A stretch of DNA of 64,000 nucleotides from Gemmatimonadota bacterium (GCA_009837395.1 VXTP01000043.1:456936-520935); one strand, 5' to 3'. Counted from the first letter of the stretch, positions 8,273 through 59,844 are shown. Notes: a model not told the origin generated them from the letters alone. Made by a program: numbers and translations.

Positions 8273-10456
8273 TCAGGCGGGTTGGTCGGAAGGGGAAGCG
8301 GCGGGGGGTTCCGGTGCGTTCTCGACGGCGGCCAGTGGCAGCCTGATGGCCATTTCGGTGTATTGGCCAGATTCCGAATCCACCTCGATCGAACCACCGT
8401 GTTCACGGACGATATCGTTCGACAGGGCCAGGCCGAGGCCAGTGCCCTCGTCGGTGGGCTTGGTGGTGAAGAAGGGGTTGAAGATCTTGTCGATCACGTG
8501 GGGCGGAATCCCCTTGCCGTTGTCCTTTATCCGGACGACGAGCTGATCCTCCTCGCGGCGGGTGGACAACCAGATGCCAGGTACGTAACCGGATTCCGTG
8601 TCCGGATCCTCACGCTTCTCGTTGGTGGCGTGACAGGCGTTGTTCACCATGTTCAGGAATACCCGGGCCATTTCCTGGGAAACGATCTCGATCTCGCCCA
8701 GATCGGATTCGAAGTCTTCGTGGATTTCAAGCTGGAAGTCCGCGTTCGATGCCCGGGCGGCATGGTAGGCGAGGCGGGCGTGTTCTTCCAGCAGGGCATT
8801 GATGTCCGTCGACTGTTTATCTCCCGAACCTCGGCCCATCTGAAGCATATCGCGCACGATGCGGTTGGCCCGTTCGCCATGCTCCCGGATCCGGCGCAGG
8901 TTTTCCGTGAGGTCGCCGCCGATCTCCTTGATCAGTCCGTCCTGCTCCTCGTCGATCGAGCCGCCGGCCTCGGGCAGTTCTTCCTTCATTTCCTCGAGGA
9001 GTTCTTCCGAGGACTCCGCGAAGTTCTTGACGAAGTTCAACGGGTTCTGGATCTCGTGCGCCACGCCCGCGGTGAGTTCGCCCAGGGCCGCCAGTTTCTC
9101 CCGCATGACGATCTGGTCCTGCGCTTTCTGCAGTTCTGCCAGGGTGCTCTCCAGCTCGTCGTTTTTTCCGCGCAGTTCCTCGGCCAGTTTCTCAACGAGG
9201 TTCAGCCTTTGCGCTTCGATGGAGTGAAGCCTGAAGACTTCCAGCGCGGCGGCCATGTCCGCCACCTCGTCACGGCCGTCCAGTTCGACTTTCTGCTTCA
9301 GATCCCCTCCCGCCATCCGCCGCATGTGTTCCGATAGAAACCCCAGCCTGCGCAGCAGCACCTTGCCGACGAACAACCACGCGATCAGCAAGGCGCCGAC
9401 CAGACTGACCGCGTTCAGGGCCAGGAGAAGCTGCCGGCCCACCTGGATCGTCTGCGTCGACGCGACCGTGGCGGCCCGGGTACTCTCCTGCGCCGAATTC
9501 ACGAGGCTTTCCACTTCGGCCACCAGTTCGACGGAGAGATCCCGGTTGTTTTCGATCAGGGCCCGTTGCTGAGCGATCAGGTCCAGGTCCTCTCCGCGAA
9601 TCTCGAAGATCTTCCCCTGGCCGCTGCCCAGTTCGAAGAGCTGGGCGAATACCGGTTCGAGCCGTTGCCGCAGGGGCGCCGTACCCAGGCCGGCGAGACT
9701 TCGCTCCACGCCGCCGTCGGCCGACTCGAAGCGTTCCAGCAGGGGTTCCAGCCGATCGGCATCGGACAGGTTGAAGACGTTAGACAGGATCCGGGTGCTG
9801 ACGGTCGCCTCGGCCTGCAGATCGGCCAGATGCCTGTAACGTTGCAGTTCCTCTTCGGAGAGGTATTCCTCGCGGGGCGCCACCGGCTGATCGATGTCCC
9901 GGTATCCCGTTACCGTGTAGAACAACTGGTTGTCAATCGCCGGGACCAGGATATTCGTCAGTTCGAACTGCAGCCGTTCCAGTTCAAGACGAAGCTGCCG
10001 GCCCTGCTCCTGGAGCACGAAGCGTCTGGCCACGGACTCCTCGATCATTTCGATATTCGACATCAGCGTGTTGCCGGCTTCGCTGATGTGTTGAAAGCGT
10101 TCGTCTTCCATGCCGTAGCCGGCGATGGCTTCCAGCTGCACCGCGAAACTCTCCCGTTCCTCGGCGATGCTCGCGGTTACGGATTCAAAGGTTTCGGGGG
10201 TTTCCGCGGCCGTCAGGCGCGGCGCGGCCGCCGCCAGCGTCCCGCTCCGCTGGGCCACGCCGAAGGCCGCCGCGATCTCCGGTACGGCGACCTCGTTTAC
10301 TTCGCGCTGGGCCTCGCCGACCTCGTTGAAGGCGAACCACGCCACCATACTGGCCAGCATGGTCAGCGCTACCGCCGCCCCGATGCCCAGGTACAACTGC
10401 CCCGATATTCGGGAAGGGCCCTTGTCGTACAACCACAACAGCCACTGCTTGATCAT
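8273..10456 (-). CDS. Sensor histidine kinase (TM-periplasmic domain-TM-HAMP-HisKA-HATPase)
   Basis: 727 aa. Two hydrophobic segments flank a periplasmic region of about 300 aa. A HAMP-like region follows TM2. H-box LAALGELTAGVAHEIQNPLNF and G-box GTGLGLALS are present. The start overlaps the upstream binding-protein stop (10453-10456). Confidence 0.85.
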   Translation of the reverse strand: MIKQWLLWLYDKGPSRISGQLYLGIGAAVALTMLASMVAWFAFNEVGEAQREVNEVAVPEIAAAFGVAQRSGTLAAAAPRLTAAETPETFESVTASIAEERESFAVQLEAIAGYGMEDERFQHISEAGNTLMSNIEMIEESVARRFVLQEQGRQLRLELERLQFELTNILVPAIDNQLFYTVTGYRDIDQPVAPREEYLSEEELQRYRHLADLQAEATVSTRILSNVFNLSDADRLEPLLERFESADGGVERSLAGLGTAPLRQRLEPVFAQLFELGSGQGKIFEIRGEDLDLIAQQRALIENNRDLSVELVAEVESLVNSAQESTRAATVASTQTIQVGRQLLLALNAVSLVGALLIAWLFVGKVLLRRLGFLSEHMRRMAGGDLKQKVELDGRDEVADMAAALEVFRLHSIEAQRLNLVEKLAEELRGKNDELESTLAELQKAQDQIVMREKLAALGELTAGVAHEIQNPLNFVKNFAESSEELLEEMKEELPEAGGSIDEEQDGLIKEIGGDLTENLRRIREHGERANRIVRDMLQMGRGSGDKQSTDINALLEEHARLAYHAARASNADFQLEIHEDFESDLGEIEIVSQEMARVFLNMVNNACHATNEKREDPDTESGYVPGIWLSTRREEDQLVVRIKDNGKGIPPHVIDKIFNPFFTTKPTDEGTGLGLALSNDIVREHGGSIEVDSESGQYTEMAIRLPLAAVENAPEPPAASPSDQPA

Positions 10457-11754
10457 GGCATCACGTCCCGGAGGGTACGGATGGGATGGTAACGGCCATC
10501 CTGTCCGATCACCGTAAGGAAGACCGCGTCCGAACCCTGGTTATCCCCTTCGCCGAACTCGAGACGAAGACCGCCCAGGTCGATCGTCCCCGCCCGGTTC
10601 AGACTCTCCATGAGGCAGGATCGCCTTACGTCAGGGCCACAGCCCTCGAGGGCGGTGATCGTCAGCTTGCCGGCGAGGTATCCTTCGAAGGAAACGAATC
10701 CGGGGGTCGTGCCCGGCGCGTGCGCGGAGAGCGCTCTGCGGTACTGGACGGCGATGGCGATGTTACCGGCCGCGGGGAAGGGCACCACCTGAGAGACCAG
10801 GACACCGCGTCCGTCGGGACCCAGTTCTCCGGCCAGCGCATTACTCCCCACGAATGAAATCGTTGCGAATACGGGATTGAAACCCACGTGCCGCGCCCAC
10901 GCGATGAGCGTGGCAACCGGCTGGTAGGCGCCGATCACCACCACAGCGTCCGGTTTTCCCTGCTGCAGATCGAGCAGGCCGGCCTTGATCGCGGTGGTGT
11001 TCCTCGGATACACGCCGATCGCTACGGGATCGAGTTGCCGGCGCTCCAGCGCGCGCCGTACGCCGCGGTATCCGACCCGGCCGAAGGAGTCGTTCTGGTA
11101 CATCACACCGATGCGGGTGATGCCGAGATCGCGCGAAAGCCGGTCGACGATTTCCTCGGTCTCCTGGAAATAGGAGGCCCGCAGGTTAATGACGCCCGTA
11201 TCCGTGTTGTCACGTAAAAAAATCGCGCCGGTGAATGGCGCGATATAGGGTACGCCGGCCTCCGAAGTAATGGGAACGGCCGAGCGGGAGGTAGGGGTGC
11301 CGACGGCACCGATGAGCGCGAAAACCTCTTCTTCCTCGATCAGTTTCCGGGTATTCGCGATCGCGGCTTCCGGTTCATAGGCGTCATCGAGCGTGATCAG
11401 CTCGAGCTGCCTTCCGTGTACGCCGCCCCGGCGATTCGCTTCCTGGAAGGCCGCCTCGATCCCGAGGTTCATGTTCCGCCCGAGTTCGCGGGCGGGTCCG
11501 CTGAAGGCCGCGGACTGGCCGAAGAGTATGCGTTCGGCCGTCACACCGGGCTCGGTCGCCGCTCCGGGCTCGGTCGCCGCTCCGGGCTCGGTCACCGCTC
11601 CGGGCTCGGTCACCGCTCCGGGCTCGGTCACCGCTCCGGGCTCTTCGACCTGGGAGGCGTTCGCGCCGCTGTTTTCAGAGGATAAAGCGGGAGAGAACGC
11701 CGTCGCACAAAGGGCGAGCAGGATGACCGCCCAGTGGTCGCGCGTTCGTCTCAT
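10453..11754 (-). CDS. Periplasmic solute-binding protein (type-1 PBP, Leu/Ile/Val-binding-like) with an (EPGAVT)n linker
   Basis: 433 aa with an N-terminal signal peptide (ILLALCATAFSPALS). It has the LivK-like fold pattern. The low-complexity linker TEPGAVTEPGAVTEPGAVTEPGAATEPGAATEPG is encoded by an 18-bp tandem repeat at about 11539-11646. It overlaps both neighbouring genes by 4 nt. Confidence 0.75.
   Translation of the reverse strand: MRRTRDHWAVILLALCATAFSPALSSENSGANASQVEEPGAVTEPGAVTEPGAVTEPGAATEPGAATEPGVTAERILFGQSAAFSGPARELGRNMNLGIEAAFQEANRRGGVHGRQLELITLDDAYEPEAAIANTRKLIEEEEVFALIGAVGTPTSRSAVPITSEAGVPYIAPFTGAIFLRDNTDTGVINLRASYFQETEEIVDRLSRDLGITRIGVMYQNDSFGRVGYRGVRRALERRQLDPVAIGVYPRNTTAIKAGLLDLQQGKPDAVVVIGAYQPVATLIAWARHVGFNPVFATISFVGSNALAGELGPDGRGVLVSQVVPFPAAGNIAIAVQYRRALSAHAPGTTPGFVSFEGYLAGKLTITALEGCGPDVRRSCLMESLNRAGTIDLGGLRLEFGEGDNQGSDAVFLTVIGQDGRYHPIRTLRDVMP
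11539..11646 (-). repeat. In-frame 18-bp tandem repeat (about 6 copies) encoding the (EPGAVT)n linker of the solute-binding protein
   Basis: The units ggctcggtcgccgctccg and ggctcggtcaccgctccg are repeated back to back. Confidence 0.8.
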
Positions 11755-13924: not shown

Positions 13925-14716
13925 TCAACCCGACGCCAGGATGGGATGCAGCGGTCCACCGAACGGCTCGCCCGGTTTCATAGTCTGGTCGCCGCCCGCG
14001 TCCCACCGGCCGTTGTAGTTCACGTACTCCGGTATGTATATGATCGCCAGCGCTCTCCGGGGAGATGCGGTGCGATTGGGCGTAGCGTAGTGGAACGTGC
14101 ATCCATGGTGAAACGTCACGCCGCCCGCTTCCATGTCCATCACGACGGGTTCTACATCGACTTCGACGTCCGTACTCTCGATATCTTTCAGTACGCTGGC
14201 GCCTTCCGTGCTCAGTGCCACCGGCGCCAGCCGGCCATACTTGTGCGATCCTGGTATGAACTGCATGCAACCGTTGTCCACCGTTACATCGTCCACGGCG
14301 ATCCATGCCGAAAGCGCGCCGACCTGTTCCATGGGCCAGTACGGTGCGTCCTGGTGCCAGTTGGTGGCCTTGCTCTGTTCACCACCGGGCTTGATCAGAC
14401 CATGGTCATGGTAGATGACCAGGCGCTTGCACTTCGAAATCTTCCGGGCGATCTCCGCCAGCCGCGTATCAAACGAGTATTTCCGGATGACCTCGTAGTC
14501 GACCCACAGGTTGACCATCTGGTTGAAAACGCGGTTGTAATCGTCGTCCGTCTCGCGTCCACCGCCCAGTATACGTGCTCTCTTTTCGGCAACCGTCTTG
14601 TCCAGCGCGTCGGCCAGTTCCTCGATTTCCCGCTTCGAGAAAAACCCCGGAATCTGGAGATAGCCGTTCTCCTGAAAGAACTCAACCTCATCGGCGCCAA
14701 TGTGATTTGGATTCAT
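13925..14716 (-). CDS. PhyH-family Fe(II)/2-oxoglutarate dioxygenase (paralogue 1)
   Basis: 263 aa. HQD facial triad (WHQDAPYWP) and distal His (FHHGCTFHYATPN). Phytanoyl-CoA dioxygenase fold pattern. Confidence 0.75.
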   Translation of the reverse strand: MNPNHIGADEVEFFQENGYLQIPGFFSKREIEELADALDKTVAEKRARILGGGRETDDDYNRVFNQMVNLWVDYEVIRKYSFDTRLAEIARKISKCKRLVIYHDHGLIKPGGEQSKATNWHQDAPYWPMEQVGALSAWIAVDDVTVDNGCMQFIPGSHKYGRLAPVALSTEGASVLKDIESTDVEVDVEPVVMDMEAGGVTFHHGCTFHYATPNRTASPRRALAIIYIPEYVNYNGRWDAGGDQTMKPGEPFGGPLHPILASG

Positions 14717-14962
14717 AACGCTGTAGAACCCGGGGACTGGAACGCATAACTCATATATAGTCCAAGCCTATACAAATCAACAACAATAAACATTTCAGTG
14801 CAGAATTTCGCACGAATAACGTAAATTAACTTACGAGCAAGAAATTTCAACCCCTTTTCACAAATCGAGGGTTTTATTCGACATTGCAGCGCCCGGTCGG
14901 AATGTGTACGGCGCCGGCCGAAATCGATACATCCATCATCGTACAACCCGGAGGAATGCACC

Positions 14963-15940
14963 ATGTCGACGGACCGGTACCGGATCGGCGTCCAGGACTA
15001 TATCGATTTCCACCGCGACGGCTACCTCGTCGTCCGCGGACTCGTGCCCGGAGCGGAAGTGGAAGAAATACGCCGCCATACCGAAGCACTGATGCAGGGA
15101 AGGATTACCATCGAAGGGGTCGATCCGCCGCCGCCCGGATTGACGTCCGAACAGATGGGACAGCACTGGCTGCGCATACACATGCTTCACCGGAAGCACG
15201 CGCTGCATGAGCGGTTTCTGCTCCAACCCCGTATCCTGGACGTGCTCGAAGCCCTGATCGGCCCGGACGTGCTGGCGCTCCAGACCATGTTGTTCCTGAA
15301 ACCGCCCGGCCGCGAAGGCCAGGGTTTTCACCAGGACTCGTACTACATACCCACCTATCCCGACACGCTGATCGGTTCCTGGCTGGCCGTGGATCCCGCC
15401 GATGAAGAAAACGGCTGCATGATGGTCATGCCGGGATCGCATCATGAGCCGATTTATCCGGACGAAAACAAGCTCGGCCAGAACCACACCGACGGCGCCA
15501 TAGGGGACCTTGGGACCATCGAGGGCGCCAGTGCGACGGATGAGTCCCTGAACGGACTGGCCCCTGTCGCCGGGAAGTACGCCGGCGGCGAGGTGGCCGC
15601 GCGCATGGTGCCGGGAGATGTCCTGTTCTTCCACGGGCATCTCCTGCACCGGTCGCACGAGAACCGGACCGGGACGCGGTTTCGCCGGGCATTCGTGGGT
15701 CATTACTGCAACGCGAGGTCCTGGGTGCCGTGGAATCATGGCGCCGAATTCGAGGGGCCGACTGCGAATAACCTCCACATCCTCGCCCGGGGAAATACCC
15801 ACCTGCCCTTCGCCCTGCCGAAGTTCGGCACGCCATGCGACGCGCTCAATCCCAGGGAAACGGCCGGCGGCGTGCGGCCCGCGCGCATGATGGGCGACAT
15901 GCCCAAATCGACCGTGAAGGGCGTCATGGTACCGCGTTGA
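14963..15940 (+). CDS. PhyH-family Fe(II)/2-oxoglutarate dioxygenase (paralogue 2)
   Basis: 325 aa. Motifs FHQDSYYIP and MVMPGSHHEP, distal FFHGHLLHRSHEN. Divergent from paralogue 1 across an AT-rich 246-bp spacer. Confidence 0.75.
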   Translation: MSTDRYRIGVQDYIDFHRDGYLVVRGLVPGAEVEEIRRHTEALMQGRITIEGVDPPPPGLTSEQMGQHWLRIHMLHRKHALHERFLLQPRILDVLEALIGPDVLALQTMLFLKPPGREGQGFHQDSYYIPTYPDTLIGSWLAVDPADEENGCMMVMPGSHHEPIYPDENKLGQNHTDGAIGDLGTIEGASATDESLNGLAPVAGKYAGGEVAARMVPGDVLFFHGHLLHRSHENRTGTRFRRAFVGHYCNARSWVPWNHGAEFEGPTANNLHILARGNTHLPFALPKFGTPCDALNPRETAGGVRPARMMGDMPKSTVKGVMVPR

Positions 15941-35578: not shown

Positions 35579-36307
35579 ATGAAACTGAGCGGCGGGCAGA
35601 AACGGTTTTTCAGCGACTTCGGTTACCTCGTCCTACCGGGCCTCCTGCGAGAGGAGATTCCCTGGATCATCGAGGAATTCGAACGGGTGTTCCGTGAGGC
35701 CGGGATCGTGCACGACGGTACCGCCCGGTCGAGCCTGGGGCGCTTCATCGAACGCAGTGAACGGCTGTGCACATTACTCGACCACTCCAATGTCGACGGA
35801 TTGCTGTCGGGCCTCCTGGGGGAGGGCTACAACTATCTGGGCAGCGGCGGCGAGCTGTACGTCGGTGACGGCATGTGGCATCCGGACTGTCACGGGGACC
35901 CGGTTGTCCAGGTAAAATGGGCGATGTATCTCGATCCCCTGACCCCTGAGACCGGCGCCCTCAGATTCGTGCCGGGTTCCCACCGGCAGGGATGGCAGGG
36001 CAATCTCGATACCCATGCGCTCTGGGGCATGGGCATGGAAGAAGTACCCTGCGTCGCGCCCCATAACCAGCCCGGCGATGTCGTCGTGTTTAACCAGATG
36101 ACCCTGCACAATGCCCTTGGCGGCGGAAACCGCCGTCGCATGCTGAACATGACGGCCTGTTCGTCCTGTCGTTCGGAGGCCGAACTCGCCTTTCTTCGGC
36201 GCAGGCTCCCGGCCGACCGGGGCGAACTGCGGTGGGACCTGATGCGCAGGACGGCGACGCCGGAGCGGATGCGCCACCTGGAACAGCCATGGCAGATACT
36301 GGCATAA
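35579..36307 (+). CDS. PhyH-family Fe(II)/2-oxoglutarate dioxygenase (paralogue 3)
   Basis: 242 aa. Motifs MWHPDCHGD and distal HN in MTLHNALGG. The 3' end overlaps the IlvD/EDD gene by about 19 nt. Confidence 0.6.
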   Translation: MKLSGGQKRFFSDFGYLVLPGLLREEIPWIIEEFERVFREAGIVHDGTARSSLGRFIERSERLCTLLDHSNVDGLLSGLLGEGYNYLGSGGELYVGDGMWHPDCHGDPVVQVKWAMYLDPLTPETGALRFVPGSHRQGWQGNLDTHALWGMGMEEVPCVAPHNQPGDVVVFNQMTLHNALGGGNRRRMLNMTACSSCRSEAELAFLRRRLPADRGELRWDLMRRTATPERMRHLEQPWQILA

Positions 36308-44023: not shown

Positions 44024-45142
44024 ATGGACCAGATCAAACGGCGCGAGTTTCTGAAGACGGCATCCACGGCCGGATTGGCCGGCGGGGCCGCACTGATGGC
44101 GGGTTGTGGTTCCGGGCAGGAAAGCAGCGGTCCCGCCATCCGCACGGACAGGACCTATGAGTGGAAGATGGTCACCACCTGGACACCGAATCTGCCCATA
44201 TTGCAGGAGAGTGCGCGACTCCTTTCCCAATGGGTGGAGGAAATGTCCGAGGGGAGGATGAAGATCACGGTGTATGCGGGCGGCGAGTTGATTCCGGCCC
44301 TCGAGGGATTCGAAGCGGTCAGCCAGGGTGTGGCGGAAATGGGACACGGCGCCGCGTACTACTGGGCCGGGAAGGCGCCCGCCACGCAGTTCTTCTCTTC
44401 GGTACCTTTCGGGATGAACGCACAACAGGTCACCGCCTGGCTCTACAGCGGCGGCGGGTTGGAGTTATGGGAGGAAATCTACGCCCCATTCAACCTGATC
44501 CCCATGCCCGCGGGCAATACCGGCTTCCAGATGGGGGGCTGGTTCAGGAAGGAAATCAACACCGCCGACGACCTCCAGGGACTGAAGATGCGGATACCGG
44601 GCCTGGGGGGCGACGTGATCAAGCGGGCGGGCGGTTCGGCCATTCTGTCTCCCGTAGGCGAGATTTACACCAACCTCGAACGCGGCGTCATCGACGCCAC
44701 CGAATGGATCGGCCCGTATCACGACTACCTCATGGGCTTCTACCGGGCGGCCCAGTACTACTACTATCCCGGTTGGCATGAACCGGGCACCGTGACGGAA
44801 CTCATGGTCAACAAGAGCGCTTTCGAGGAACTCCCGGCCTATCTGCAGACGGTGATCCGGACCGCGGCGGCCCGGTCGACGCACTGGGTGCTGTCCGAGT
44901 TCGACGCCAGGAACAACGAGTACCTGCAGAAGCTGGTCAACGAAGAAGGGGTACAGCTCAAACGCTTTCCGGATTCCGTGCTCACGACCCTCAAGGGATA
45001 CTCGGAGGAAGTCATCGCCCAGCTGGTCGAAACAGACGAAGACAGCAGGCGGGTGTACGAGTCCTTCACGTCTTTCCGGAACACGGTTACCGGATGGACG
45101 GACCTGGGAGAGAAGATCTACTACTCGGGCGCCATGGGGTAA
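44024..45142 (+). CDS. TRAP-transporter solute-binding protein, DctP family (Tat signal plus lipobox), orphan
   Basis: 372 aa. N-terminus RREFLKTASTAGLAGGAALMAGC. DctP-family pattern throughout. No dctQ/dctM nearby. Confidence 0.7.
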   Translation: MDQIKRREFLKTASTAGLAGGAALMAGCGSGQESSGPAIRTDRTYEWKMVTTWTPNLPILQESARLLSQWVEEMSEGRMKITVYAGGELIPALEGFEAVSQGVAEMGHGAAYYWAGKAPATQFFSSVPFGMNAQQVTAWLYSGGGLELWEEIYAPFNLIPMPAGNTGFQMGGWFRKEINTADDLQGLKMRIPGLGGDVIKRAGGSAILSPVGEIYTNLERGVIDATEWIGPYHDYLMGFYRAAQYYYYPGWHEPGTVTELMVNKSAFEELPAYLQTVIRTAAARSTHWVLSEFDARNNEYLQKLVNEEGVQLKRFPDSVLTTLKGYSEEVIAQLVETDEDSRRVYESFTSFRNTVTGWTDLGEKIYYSGAMG

Positions 45143-45190
45143 GGCGGTAAATCGGCGGGGCGCTGGCGATAGAGCTGCAGGGCGCTGGCG

Positions 45191-45907
45191 CTATCCGTCG
45201 AAAACGCCTTCGATCCGGGCGATCCAGCCCGTCATCGCGTCGCAGTACAGCAGGTCGTCTCCGCAACGCGCCAGGCCGTGCGGTTCCGGATGTTCCGGAC
45301 CGATATGGATCTCGTCGAGCACGTTGCCGGTATCGACGTCCATCTTCGCGATGACGCGGTCCATCTTGAATACCATCCACAGGGCATCGTCGCCGGTCCT
45401 CACGATGCCGTGGCCGGCGTCGTAGGGCAGCGGAATGACGCGCTTCACCGACCAGTCCGGGATTCGGACCTGCGTGAGCGTCTTCTCCTTAAGCGTGCTC
45501 AGCCAGATCGTGCCTGTATCCACGAAATCGTAGTCCAGGCCATGGGTGCCGCCGGCAGCGGGAAGGGGCCGGCGGAGCAGAGTAGCGCCGGTCCGCGGAT
45601 CGACCTTGAGGATCTCGCCCGTCCCGGGCGGCGCGTCGGTCTCCCTCGAAAATCGCCACCGTTCGCCCGGACCGTTGGCGGCCAGCCACAGCCCCCCTTC
45701 GCCGAATGACATCCCACTCGTGTTGGAGGATTCCGTCGGCAACTCGCGCAGTATCCTGCTGGTTCCGTACTCGTGGGGAGCTTCCAGGGCGAGGAGCGCG
45801 ATGCGATCGGTGAATTGATCGACGACCCACAGGCCTTCGTCGGTGACCTGCAGACCGTTTGGCGCACTGTACGGCGCCCGCATGTACCGGGTGATCCGTG
45901 GGTTCAT
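45191..45907 (-). CDS. Beta-propeller protein (NHL/SGL/Vgb-like)
   Basis: 238 aa with repeated blade-like segments (LWVVDQ…, LWLAANG…, IWLST…, LWMVFK…). Its start overlaps the PhyH-4 stop by 4 nt. Confidence 0.45.
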   Translation of the reverse strand: MNPRITRYMRAPYSAPNGLQVTDEGLWVVDQFTDRIALLALEAPHEYGTSRILRELPTESSNTSGMSFGEGGLWLAANGPGERWRFSRETDAPPGTGEILKVDPRTGATLLRRPLPAAGGTHGLDYDFVDTGTIWLSTLKEKTLTQVRIPDWSVKRVIPLPYDAGHGIVRTGDDALWMVFKMDRVIAKMDVDTGNVLDEIHIGPEHPEPHGLARCGDDLLYCDAMTGWIARIEGVFDG

Positions 45908-46878
45908 GCCTCTTTCCTGTCCTTGAGACGGGTCCAGCCCCTGCCCGGGTTATAGGGCTTCGCCTCGTGGTAACGGTCCCGGAGTTCCCTGAAGGCTTCC
46001 GGCGTCGTGACCTCCCGCTCGGGATGATTCGAATCCCGGATCACGAAGTCGGCCTCGCTCGGATAGCAGGCCATGGTGACCGGATCCCGTTCCGGCGTGT
46101 AGGTCTCCGGGTCCTCCTCCGAGTTGTTCGGCGCGTCCATGGACTGGTACCTCAGGTCGATACTCCAGCGAACGATCCCGGTATGGTTCACGAAGGAGGC
46201 GTGGGGGGTCAGATTGGTCATGAACAGGACGTCGCCCCGTTTCATTTCCAGGGGAATGGGCTGGTTCTCCGGCAATTCGTCCCCGGGGATCTCCAGGTAG
46301 CCGCCGTGCCCCCCCGTGTAATGCCGGAACACGCCGCCCTTGTGGACCCCGGGAATCACGTGCAGACAACCGTTTTCCACGGTCGTGTCGACCAGCGGGA
46401 TCCAGCAGGTCACGATCAGGTGCCGGTCGCAGTGGGGCAGGAAGTAGCCTGAGTCCTGGTGCCAGGGCACTTCCGTCCGCGTATGCCCCGGAAGCTTCGG
46501 ACGGATGCGATAAGCGGAAGCGCCCACGATGTCCGGTCCGATCAGGTCCGAAACACAGTCTACCAGGTCCGCATTCCGCAACAAATCCAGCATCGACTCG
46601 CCGTTGAACTGCCCTCCACCCCGTCCCATGATCATCGCCAGGACGGCCTCGCCGGCTTCTTCGGACTCTTTGTAAATATGCGCCAACCTGGTTTCGAATC
46701 CTTCTCCCGCATAAGGGCTGGGCAGTTTTCCCTCGTCGTGCAGCCGGCGCGCGCCTTCGTCCACGATGCCGCTCAGGGCCCGGATCAAAGGATGCAGCGC
46801 GGCTTTGGACAGCAGCCCGGTTTTGACCAGGTAACCCTGATTTTCGAATTGCGTGGTTTCCGCCTGAGATAAACCCAT
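45904..46878 (-). CDS. PhyH-family Fe(II)/2-oxoglutarate dioxygenase (paralogue 4)
   Basis: 324 aa. WHQDSGYF HxD motif. Distal His in MTNLTPHASF. Translationally coupled to the downstream beta-propeller gene. Confidence 0.75.
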   Translation of the reverse strand: MGLSQAETTQFENQGYLVKTGLLSKAALHPLIRALSGIVDEGARRLHDEGKLPSPYAGEGFETRLAHIYKESEEAGEAVLAMIMGRGGGQFNGESMLDLLRNADLVDCVSDLIGPDIVGASAYRIRPKLPGHTRTEVPWHQDSGYFLPHCDRHLIVTCWIPLVDTTVENGCLHVIPGVHKGGVFRHYTGGHGGYLEIPGDELPENQPIPLEMKRGDVLFMTNLTPHASFVNHTGIVRWSIDLRYQSMDAPNNSEEDPETYTPERDPVTMACYPSEADFVIRDSNHPEREVTTPEAFRELRDRYHEAKPYNPGRGWTRLKDRKEA

Positions 46879-57555: not shown

Positions 57556-57633
57556 GGTTTGTTGCCCCTTCCCATGCGCCGGATCATCCGGCGCTTGTTC
57601 ATTACATCAATATATCCATATATCGATTTAGCA

Positions 57634-59844
<2,211 letters not shown>

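What the first reader, a model, noticed from the sequence alone, without database searches (positions are those of the whole stretch)
13925..15940. Divergent pair of PhyH-family dioxygenases across an AT-rich 246-bp spacer, two of four PhyH paralogues in the 64-kb window
Four PhyH-type Fe(II)/2-oxoglutarate dioxygenases occur within 64 kb (13925-14716, 14963-15940, 35579-36307, 45904-46878). Such enzymes hydroxylate, halogenate or demethylate specialised substrates, for example ectoine, proline, aminoglycosides or phytanoyl-CoA. The first two are divergently transcribed. Their shared spacer, 14717-14962, contains a stretch of more than 100 bp that is strikingly AT-rich for a roughly 65% GC genome (tatatagtccaagcctatacaaatcaacaacaataaacatttcagtgcagaatttcgcacgaataacgtaaattaacttacgagcaagaaatttcaa). 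This is consistent with a regulated bidirectional promoter or nucleoid-protein binding region. The substrates are unknown.
Basis: partly seen in the sequence, partly recalled or inferred. Interest (0 to 1): 0.5.

Follow-up and report, generated by a model that had tools for sequence, protein, structure and literature searches.

The report
Head-to-head PhyH oxygenase genes, ordinary
Two unrelated iron/2-oxoglutarate oxygenase genes sit head-to-head in a sponge-symbiont genome, and the AT-rich DNA between them is most likely the conserved control region of one of them (untested by experiment); it is real but ordinary and reveals no new system.

Summary
All four ORFs are PF05721 (PhyH) proteins. 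The 246-bp spacer contains the most AT-rich 100 bp of the window (31% GC against 62.5%). All four keep HxD...H plus the 2-oxoglutarate Arg, so they are oxygenase-type, not halogenases. They share only 22-25% identity and match no characterised equivalog. NCBI already annotates them as [quoted passage not shown] from sponge metagenomes, and PhyH expansion in a sponge-symbiont phylum (Poribacteria) is published.

The head-to-head pair is confined to one clade: 19 species-level genomes. The 325-aa gene (B) is dispensable. It is absent in two relatives, fragmented in one, and separated from A by a 3.9-kb IS1595 transposon in another. More distant B orthologues lie next to other genes.

Only the AT-rich half of the spacer is conserved across 20 species. 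It stays upstream of the 263-aa gene (A) when B is deleted, so it is most likely A's upstream control region rather than a shared bidirectional promoter. No conserved RNA structure, Rfam hit or strong sigma-70 match was found.

Verdict: two independent accessory hydroxylases of unknown substrate. Low interest.

The parts
13925..14716 (-). PhyH-A: 263-aa Fe(II)/2-oxoglutarate oxygenase, PF05721. Triad H121/D123/H209, 2OG Arg R220.
   Evidence: Pfam 130 bits; residues; AF2 pLDDT 77.6, nearest SnoK/SnoN/MysH with TM about 0.77; NCBI MXZ76280.1.
14963..15940 (+). PhyH-B: 325-aa Fe(II)/2-oxoglutarate oxygenase, PF05721. Triad H123/D125/H229, Arg R241. Accessory gene in this clade.
   Evidence: Pfam 139 bits; alignment to human PHYH shows HQD, H and R aligned; AF2 pLDDT 80.8, nearest 2a1x; absent, fragmented or separated in L012, L042, L044 and L010.
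14717..14962 (.). 246-bp divergent intergenic spacer, GC 45%.
14754..14850 (.). AT-rich core (97 bp, GC 30.9%), the lowest-GC stretch of the window.
14717..14792 (-). Conserved block 3, proximal to PhyH-A: GTTTATTGTTGTTGATTTGTAT..CTATATATGAGT.ATTCGATC..TCCCCGGGTTCT. Probable core promoter and leader of PhyH-A. Retained even in L012, which lacks B.
   Evidence: Alignments A1 and A4; entropy 0.44-0.61 against 0.73 at A's third codon positions; unique in the window.
14810..14829 (-). Conserved block 2 (TTAATTTACGTTATTCGTGC on the minus strand). TAAATT in the sister subclade is a candidate -10.
14845..14860 (-). Conserved block 1 (TGAAAAGGGGTTGAAA). TTGAAA is a candidate -35, 16 bp from block 2.
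   Evidence: Invariant TGAAAAG..GTT in 20 species; unique in the window; relaxed sigma-70 scan; kept in L042, which lacks B.
14713..14754 (-). 13-codon upstream ORF (MSYAFQSPGSTAL) whose TGA overlaps PhyH-A's ATG (ATGA). Intact in 17 of 21 clade genomes, but the substitution pattern is not coding-like. Status unresolved.
14888..14930 (.). Two degenerate units of about 22 bp (AGCGCCCGGTCGGAATGTGTAC / GGCGCCGGCCGAAATCGATAC) in the variable GC-rich half next to PhyH-B. Relatives have 3-6 copies.
   Evidence: Read; the repeat tool did not call them in the window itself. 22-bp periodic repeats in L017-L021; length variation in A4.
14950..14954 (+). GGAGG Shine-Dalgarno of PhyH-B. Its core (AGGA) is the only invariant element on B's side of the spacer.
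35579..36307 (+). PhyH-C, 242 aa. H101/D103/H177/R186. Lies between Ppx/GppA and an IlvD/Edd-family dehydratase.
   Evidence: no PDB sequence hit.
45904..46878 (-). PhyH-D, 324 aa. H140/D142/H226/R237. 4-nt overlap with a downstream Vgb-lyase-like gene.

Best explanation
The locus holds two independent PhyH-family Fe(II)/2-oxoglutarate oxygenases from different, anciently diverged subfamilies. They became head-to-head neighbours in one clade of sponge-associated bacteria with genomes of about 3.7-3.9 Mb, labelled Gemmatimonadota or Latescibacterota. Each enzyme binds Fe(II) with His-x-Asp...His and anchors 2-oxoglutarate with a conserved Arg. By family chemistry each would decarboxylate 2-oxoglutarate to form an Fe(IV)-oxo species that hydroxylates, or otherwise oxidises, a small-molecule substrate. 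Neither is a halogenase. They belong to the scattered PhyH expansion already described for a sponge-symbiont phylum and probably serve scavenging or modification of host- or seawater-derived organic compounds. The substrate is inferred only at that level. The AT-rich half of the spacer, about 150 bp in three conserved blocks, is the DNA-level upstream control region of PhyH-A: promoter plus probable operator. The best candidate is TTGAAA-16 bp-TAAATT/TAATTT, about 115-120 nt upstream of the start, or a proximal TTGTTG-18 bp-TATATA. The GC-rich, length-variable half carrying 22-bp repeats lies on PhyH-B's side. PhyH-B is an accessory gene that is repeatedly lost. Shown: family, fold, catalytic residues, conservation pattern, gene loss and IS insertion. 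Inferred: promoter positions, catalysis, physiological role.
For: Family and residues. Fold. Paralogues share 22-25% identity. No equivalog membership. Core-genome context with no biosynthetic cluster. Pair present in 19 species-representative genomes plus the window. B absent in L012/L032 and L042, fragmented in L044, and separated by a 3,872-bp IS1595 element with 24-bp inverted repeats and an 8-bp duplication in L010. B orthologues of 72-73% identity lie elsewhere, next to MR_MLE genes, and the A and B orthologues of one groundwater MAG are on different contigs. The AT-rich half is conserved: entropy 0.44-0.87 with few gaps, against 1.0-1.3 with 14-66% gaps in most bins of the GC-rich half, and 0.73 at A's third codon positions. 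The whole AT-rich block is retained upstream of A in B-less L042, and block 3 in L012. No RNA structure on either strand and no Rfam hit. PhyH expansion in Poribacteria, a sponge-symbiont phylum: PMC3909097.
Against: No strict sigma-70 consensus is present in the window's spacer. Relaxed candidates score only 8-9 of 12, and the best one is weaker in the window's own subclade. Retention of the head-to-head arrangement in 19 species could reflect some shared regulation. Conservation of the AT-rich block is only modestly better than synonymous sites. No expression data exist. Substrates are unknown and neighbours give no consistent clue. A genome-wide PhyH count for this lineage was not obtained, so 'expansion' rests on 4 genes in 64 kb plus a published precedent in another phylum.
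Confidence: 0.7

Rival explanations
1. One reading: the spacer is a shared, regulated bidirectional promoter or nucleoid-protein binding region that co-controls the two dioxygenases as a functional pair.
For: The head-to-head arrangement is kept in 19 species. The AT-rich block is conserved. Relaxed sigma-70-like candidates point both ways.
Against: B is deleted twice with the AT-rich block intact upstream of A. An IS splits the spacer in L010. B is fragmented in L044. B orthologues in other lineages are unlinked to A. B's side of the spacer is not conserved apart from the Shine-Dalgarno.
Confidence: 0.17
2. The conserved leader of PhyH-A is a cis-regulatory device. A 13-codon upstream ORF is translationally coupled to PhyH-A through the ATGA overlap, acting as a leader or arrest peptide, or the leader is a structured RNA.
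For: The uORF is intact in 17 of 21 genomes with a conserved S-I-x-S-P-G-S core. Some changes in the core are synonymous (TCC>TCT, CCG>CCC/CCA). PhyH-A has no Shine-Dalgarno.
Against: Codon-position entropy is 0.83/0.38/0.70, which is not coding-like. The uORF is broken in 4 genomes. Only 14 of 37 genes here have a Shine-Dalgarno anyway. RNAalifold finds essentially no structure or covariation. No Rfam hit.
Confidence: 0.08
3. The AT-rich stretch is a relic of foreign or mobile DNA (a horizontal-transfer or IS scar), or an iteron-plus-AT-rich replication-origin-like element.
For: Low GC. An IS1595 element chose this spot in L010. 22-bp tandem repeats lie next to an AT-rich region.
Against: The block is conserved in place across 20 species and is unique in the window. 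It has no terminal repeats. The cumulative GC skew shows no inflection here. No rep or dnaA gene is nearby. The 22-bp repeats are degenerate and confined to one subclade.
Confidence: 0.03

Closest known systems
PhyH-family expansion in sponge symbionts (Poribacteria; Kamke et al. 2014, PMC3909097)
   Same: Many highly diverse PF05721 genes scattered through the genome of a sponge-associated bacterium, mostly without assignable function.
   Different: A different phylum (MAGs labelled Gemmatimonadota or Latescibacterota). The genome-wide frequency was not measured here. No phnY/phnZ-type pairing was seen.
Human phytanoyl-CoA 2-hydroxylase PHYH (PDB 2a1x)
   Same: Best sequence and structure match of PhyH-B (E 2.6e-21; Foldseek E 1.7e-17). 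HQD, the distal His and the 2OG Arg align.
   Different: Only 23% identity in the structural alignment. TM is 0.55 normalised to the query. There is no evidence for a CoA-thioester substrate, and the context is bacterial.
SnoK / SnoN (nogalamycin) and MysH (mycosporine-like amino acids), Fe/2OG enzymes
   Same: Best matches of PhyH-A (SnoK E 5.9e-26, TM 0.77; MysH E 2e-19), with the same triad.
   Different: At most 25% identity in the structural alignments. No polyketide, glycosyl or MAA biosynthetic genes are nearby. The context is a housekeeping region.
SyrB2 / CytC3-type Fe/2OG halogenases (TIGR01762)
   Same: The same PhyH-like fold, with weak HMM similarity (33-53 bits in A, B and D).
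   Different: Halogenases have Ala or Gly in place of the Asp. All four proteins here keep Asp. Scores are far below the 226-bit cut-off.
IS1595-family insertion sequences
   Same: The L010 element has a DDE_Tnp_IS1595 transposase, 24-bp perfect terminal inverted repeats and an 8-bp target duplication in AT-rich DNA.
   Different: It occurs in a relative, not in the window. It carries about 2.8 kb of extra small ORFs.

Membership tests
Pfam PF05721 PhyH (Fe(II)/2OG oxygenase, PhyH-like) | HMM score above the gathering threshold (22 bits) | tested here: met
   130.3, 139.3, 40.4 and 87.2 bits for A, B, C and D.
Pfam PF05721 PhyH (Fe(II)/2OG oxygenase, PhyH-like) | His-x-Asp/Glu...His facial triad | tested here: met
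   A H121/D123/H209; B H123/D125/H229; C H101/D103/H177; D H140/D142/H226. These columns are invariant in alignment A2.
Pfam PF05721 PhyH (Fe(II)/2OG oxygenase, PhyH-like) | Conserved Arg that binds the C5 carboxylate of 2-oxoglutarate | tested here: met
   R220, R241, R186 and R237 are invariant. In the HMMER alignment, B's fRrA pairs with PHYH's fRkA. The identification of this residue as R275 of PHYH is from my own knowledge.
Pfam PF05721 PhyH (Fe(II)/2OG oxygenase, PhyH-like) | Double-stranded beta-helix fold | tested here: met
   AF2 models of A and B (pTM 0.82 each) match SnoK, SnoN, MysH and PHYH with Foldseek probability 1.00. C and D were not modelled.
Pfam PF05721 PhyH (Fe(II)/2OG oxygenase, PhyH-like) | 2OG-dependent oxidative catalysis | not testable with these tools
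   Needs an enzyme assay.
Fe/2OG halogenases (SyrB2/CytC3; TIGR01762) | Asp of the triad replaced by Ala or Gly | tested here: not met
   All four have Asp (HQD, HQD, HPD, HQD).
Fe/2OG halogenases (SyrB2/CytC3; TIGR01762) | NCBIfam score of at least 226.3 bits | tested here: not met
   37.1, 53.5 and 33 bits for A, B and D; no hit for C.
Ectoine hydroxylase EctD (TIGR02408) | Equivalog score of at least 336.5 bits | tested here: not met
   34.3, 34.9 and 25.7 bits for A, B and D; no hit for C.
Methylphosphonate hydroxylase PhnY* (NF052437) | Equivalog score of at least 500 bits | tested here: not met
   55.8, 33.1 and 48.1 bits for A, B and D; no hit for C. No HD-phosphohydrolase neighbour was seen.
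Phytanoyl-CoA 2-hydroxylase orthologue (eukaryotic PHYH) | Orthology-level similarity and an acyl-CoA substrate | tested here: inconclusive
   B is the best match, but at 23% identity in the structural alignment (E 2.6e-21). The substrate is not testable.
Bidirectional (shared) promoter region | Two divergent transcription start sites sharing core or operator elements, with co-regulation | not testable with these tools
   No strict sigma-70 consensus; only relaxed candidates. Comparative data argue that the conserved block belongs to A alone.

The most novel reading that the evidence does not exclude
PhyH-A belongs to a subfamily kept at 55-60% identity across at least five phyla, many of them represented by sponge or coral symbiont MAGs (Latescibacterota, Gemmatimonadota, Caldilineaceae, Poribacteria, Spirochaetia). 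It could be a symbiosis-linked enzyme acting on a host-derived metabolite. In this clade it might be controlled by a dedicated conserved AT-rich operator and an ATGA-coupled 13-codon leader ORF, possibly tied to the adjacent STAS / RR-PP2C / RsbW partner-switching module.
Probability: 0.1. Interest if true: 0.5.

Novelty: new member of a known kind. Interest (0 to 1): 0.18.

Why it matters
It matters little beyond annotation. It adds another sponge-associated lineage with densely scattered, functionally unassigned PhyH oxygenases. It shows that this 'gene pair' is an evolutionary juxtaposition and not a two-enzyme unit, so it should not be used as a pathway clue. The conserved 150-bp AT-rich block gives a defined, testable promoter or operator candidate in an uncultured phylum whose promoter rules are unknown. 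The substrates of these abundant symbiont oxygenases remain an open question, but this locus offers no special handle on it.

Tried and rejected
- **Halogenase hypothesis.** Rejected: Asp is present in all four.
- **Membership of EctD, PhnY*, PtlH or the chlorinating equivalogs.** Rejected on score.
- **Structured RNA or riboswitch in the spacer.** Rfam search found nothing at E <= 1. RNAalifold on A's leader and on the distal blocks, both strands, gave 0-5 pairs with no covariation.
- **Strict sigma-70 promoter or intrinsic terminator scan.** None found.
- **Dispersed repeat or shared operator.** The conserved blocks are unique in the window.
- **Conserved neighbour as a substrate clue for PhyH-A.** Clustering ORFs around 59 distant homologues suggested a CE15-like esterase in 41 loci. 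That count was an artefact of shadow ORFs overlapping A. The true linkage holds in only 11 loci of one lineage.
- **83-aa ORF spanning the spacer (14713-14964, minus strand) and its 26-codon sub-ORF.** Rejected: 1-nt indels and length variation occur among species.
- **Replication-origin idea.** Rejected: no GC-skew inflection.
- **A's missing Shine-Dalgarno as an anomaly.** Rejected: only 14 of 37 genes have one.
- **Fifth PhyH gene at 44468-45190 (minus strand).** Rejected: it lies inside the DctP gene on the other strand and has no Pfam hit.
- **Not achieved.** A genome-wide PhyH count, and a formal tree with characterised enzymes, because no reference sequences were available in the sandbox.

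Full report
**Observation.**
ORFs 35579-36307 (+) and 45904-46878 (-) are here called PhyH-C and PhyH-D. All four hit Pfam PF05721 above the gathering score: 130, 139, 40 and 87 bits. phmmer against every six-frame ORF of the window finds no fifth member. The quoted AT-rich string is at 14754-14850, 97 bp with 30.9% GC. The window averages 62.5% GC. This stretch is the lowest-GC 100 bp of the whole 64 kb, and only one other locus (57582-57701) falls to 40% or below.

**The proteins.**
The four paralogues share only 22-25% identity with one another. They come from anciently separated subfamilies and are not recent duplicates.
- All four keep His-x-Asp...His and a conserved Arg: A H121/D123/H209/R220; B H123/D125/H229/R241; C H101/D103/H177/R186; D H140/D142/H226/R237.
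- In the HMMER alignment to human PHYH, B's HQD, distal His and Arg pair with the corresponding PHYH motifs. These are H175, D177, H264 and R275 by my own knowledge of PHYH.
- The Asp-to-Ala/Gly switch of halogenases is absent.
- Against NCBIfam, no protein comes near an equivalog cut-off. Examples are ectoine hydroxylase at 35 bits or less against 336, chlorinating enzyme at 53 or less against 226, and PhnY* at 56 or less against 500.
- By sequence against the PDB, A is nearest SnoK (5.9e-26), MysH and SnoN; B is nearest human PHYH (2.6e-21); D is nearest PHYH (1e-11); C has no hit.
- AlphaFold models of A (pLDDT 77.6) and B (80.8) have the double-stranded beta-helix fold. Their nearest structures are SnoK/SnoN/MysH for A (TM about 0.77) and PHYH for B (TM 0.70 normalised to the target), at 25% identity or less.

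They are therefore bona fide PhyH-type oxygenases of unassigned specificity.

**Origin and context.**
The window matches sponge-metagenome assemblies, including NCBI GCA_009839095.1. All four proteins are already annotated in NCBI as 'phytanoyl-CoA dioxygenase family protein [Gemmatimonadetes bacterium]': MXZ76280.1, MXZ76281.1, MXZ76299.1 and MXZ76308.1. The closest reference genomes are MAGs of about 3.7-3.9 Mb, many from sponge-metagenome projects, labelled Gemmatimonadota or Latescibacterota.

The window is core genome. It holds the Suf operon, an Rsb-like partner-switching module, Ppx/GppA, an IlvD/Edd-type dehydratase, PfkB, GcvT, PRPP synthetase, a TRAP DctP protein, PtsI, HprK, RpoN, LptA/C and LpxL. 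There is no biosynthetic gene cluster. A high density of diverse, unassigned PhyH genes is a published trait of one sponge-symbiont phylum. In Poribacteria, PF05721 is the most abundant Pfam at over 1.9% of genes, against less than 0.05% elsewhere (PMC3909097).

**Is the pair a unit?**
The head-to-head A/B arrangement between SufS and the STAS gene is present in 19 species-representative genomes of this clade. B, however, is dispensable.
- L012/L032 (A 85% identical) and L042 (A 89%) run SufS to A with no B and no remnant.
- In L044 (A 71%), B is split across three frames.
- In L010, a 3,872-bp IS1595-family element sits inside the AT-rich region. It has 24-bp perfect inverted repeats and the 8-bp duplication TAAATACC, with 44% GC. 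The sister genome L011 shows the empty site.
- B orthologues of 72-73% identity in other lineages are not next to A. They lie convergent to an enolase-superfamily (MR_MLE) gene. In L097 this is still near Suf, alongside HpcH aldolase, Ldh_2 and related genes.
- One groundwater MAG carries the A and B orthologues on different contigs.
- A homologues of 55-75% identity in other lineages have unrelated neighbours.

The juxtaposition is clade-specific, and B is accessory.

**The spacer.**
A 20-species alignment (A4) splits the spacer in two.
- **A-proximal, AT-rich half.** It is conserved in three blocks: TGAAAAGrGGTTGA; TTAAATTACGTTATT.GTGC; and GTTTATTGTTGTTGATTTGTAT...CTATATATGAGT.ATTCGATC...TCCCCGGGTTCT. 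Column entropy is 0.44-0.87 with few gaps. That is comparable to or below the 0.73 seen at third codon positions of A.
- **B-proximal, GC-rich half.** It varies in sequence and length, giving spacers of about 221-356 bp. Entropy is 1.0-1.3 with many gaps. Only the core (AGGA) of B's Shine-Dalgarno is invariant. In the window's subclade this half contains a degenerate 22-bp tandem unit in 3-6 copies. I read two copies in the window at 14888-14930, although the repeat tool did not call them there.

L042, which lacks B, keeps all three AT-rich blocks upstream of A. L012 keeps block 3. The conserved AT-rich DNA therefore belongs to PhyH-A.

Several tests on the spacer were negative.
- The blocks are unique in the window.
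- No Rfam family matches.
- RNAalifold finds essentially no conserved structure on either strand.
- The strict sigma-70 and terminator scan finds nothing.
- A relaxed scan across the alignment gives one positionally conserved candidate toward A: TTGAAA in block 1, 16 bp, then TAAATT in block 2. It scores up to 9/12 in about eight species and is weaker (TAATTT) in the window's subclade. Candidates toward B reach only 8/12 and are subclade-specific.

**A side observation.**
A 13-codon ORF (14713-14754, minus strand; MSYAFQSPGSTAL) ends in a TGA that overlaps A's ATG. It is intact in 17 of 21 clade genomes. Its codon-position variability (0.83/0.38/0.70) is not coding-like, and its core TCC-CCG-GGT is nearly invariant at all three positions. 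A DNA-level constraint is more likely than a conserved peptide. A's lack of a Shine-Dalgarno is not unusual, because only 14 of 37 genes in the window have one.

**Conclusion.**
The finding is real but ordinary. It consists of two independent accessory PhyH hydroxylases within a lineage-typical PhyH expansion. The conserved AT-rich region is best read as PhyH-A's promoter and operator region, not as a shared bidirectional switch. Substrates remain unknown. Catalysis and promoter positions are inferred, not shown.

Noticed in passing
L010:2036-5907: A 3,872-bp IS1595-family element inserted exactly in the AT-rich spacer of a sister genome. It has a 291-aa DDE_Tnp_IS1595 transposase, 24-bp perfect inverted repeats (CGCTATAAGTAGTTTTGGGCTTGA), the 8-bp target duplication TAAATACC and 44% GC. 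It also carries several small ORFs and a 263-aa ORF with no family hit on record.
   Followed up: partly
window 14713-14754 (-): A 13-codon upstream ORF whose stop overlaps PhyH-A's start (ATGA). It is intact in 17 of 21 clade genomes with an S-I-x-S-P-G-S core, but its substitution pattern is not coding-like.
   Followed up: partly
window 14888-14930; L017:5765-5832; L018:5724-5833; L019:5680-5819; L021:5764-5829: A degenerate 22-bp tandem unit (roughly GTAyCGATTyCGGCCrGGCGCC) with variable copy number (2-6) in the PhyH-B-proximal half of the spacer, seen in only one subclade. The two window copies were read by eye; the repeat tool did not call them. Function unknown.
   Followed up: partly
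L097:5001-7264; L099:5001-7112: PhyH-B orthologues (72-73% identity) in other lineages lie convergent to an enolase-superfamily MR_MLE gene. In L097 they also sit beside HpcH/HpaI aldolase, Ldh_2, a histidinol-dehydrogenase-like gene and DUF1611. This is a possible catabolic context that is absent from the window.
   Followed up: no
L015:340-6795; L016: Three PhyH genes within 7 kb, next to methionine-salvage-type genes (Aldolase_II, ARD, a HAD hydrolase). On the same locus, a MutS gene carries an intein with a LAGLIDADG domain.
   Followed up: no
window 45191-46878 (-): PhyH-D overlaps by 4 nt a downstream 238-aa gene with weak Vgb-lyase (beta-propeller) similarity, a likely two-gene operon. 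It lies convergent to a TRAP DctP solute-binding gene (44024-45142).
   Followed up: no
window 57582-57701: The only other locus with GC of 40% or below in 100-bp windows (minimum 38%). It is intergenic and lies just after a perfect palindrome, GCGCCGGAT-gat-CCGGCGC.
   Followed up: no
L054, L062, L064, L065, L067, L071, L075, L082, L086, L096 (downstream of the PhyH-A homologue); L076 (about 5 kb downstream): A glucuronoyl-esterase-like (CE15, PF22244) gene lies downstream of the PhyH-A homologue in 11 loci of large-genome MAGs labelled mostly Latescibacterota. In some it follows directly; in others it is 1-5 kb away. This is a lineage-specific linkage.
   Followed up: partly
L044:4841-5818: PhyH-B is split into three pieces in different frames in a 71%-identity relative. 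This is either a pseudogene or an assembly error.
   Followed up: no
window 10453-11754 (-): A 433-aa ORF between the RsbW-like kinase and the TorS-type sensor kinase has no Pfam hit on record here, whereas the syntenic gene in relatives (L010-L012) hits periplasmic-binding-protein families (Peripla_BP_6).
   Followed up: no
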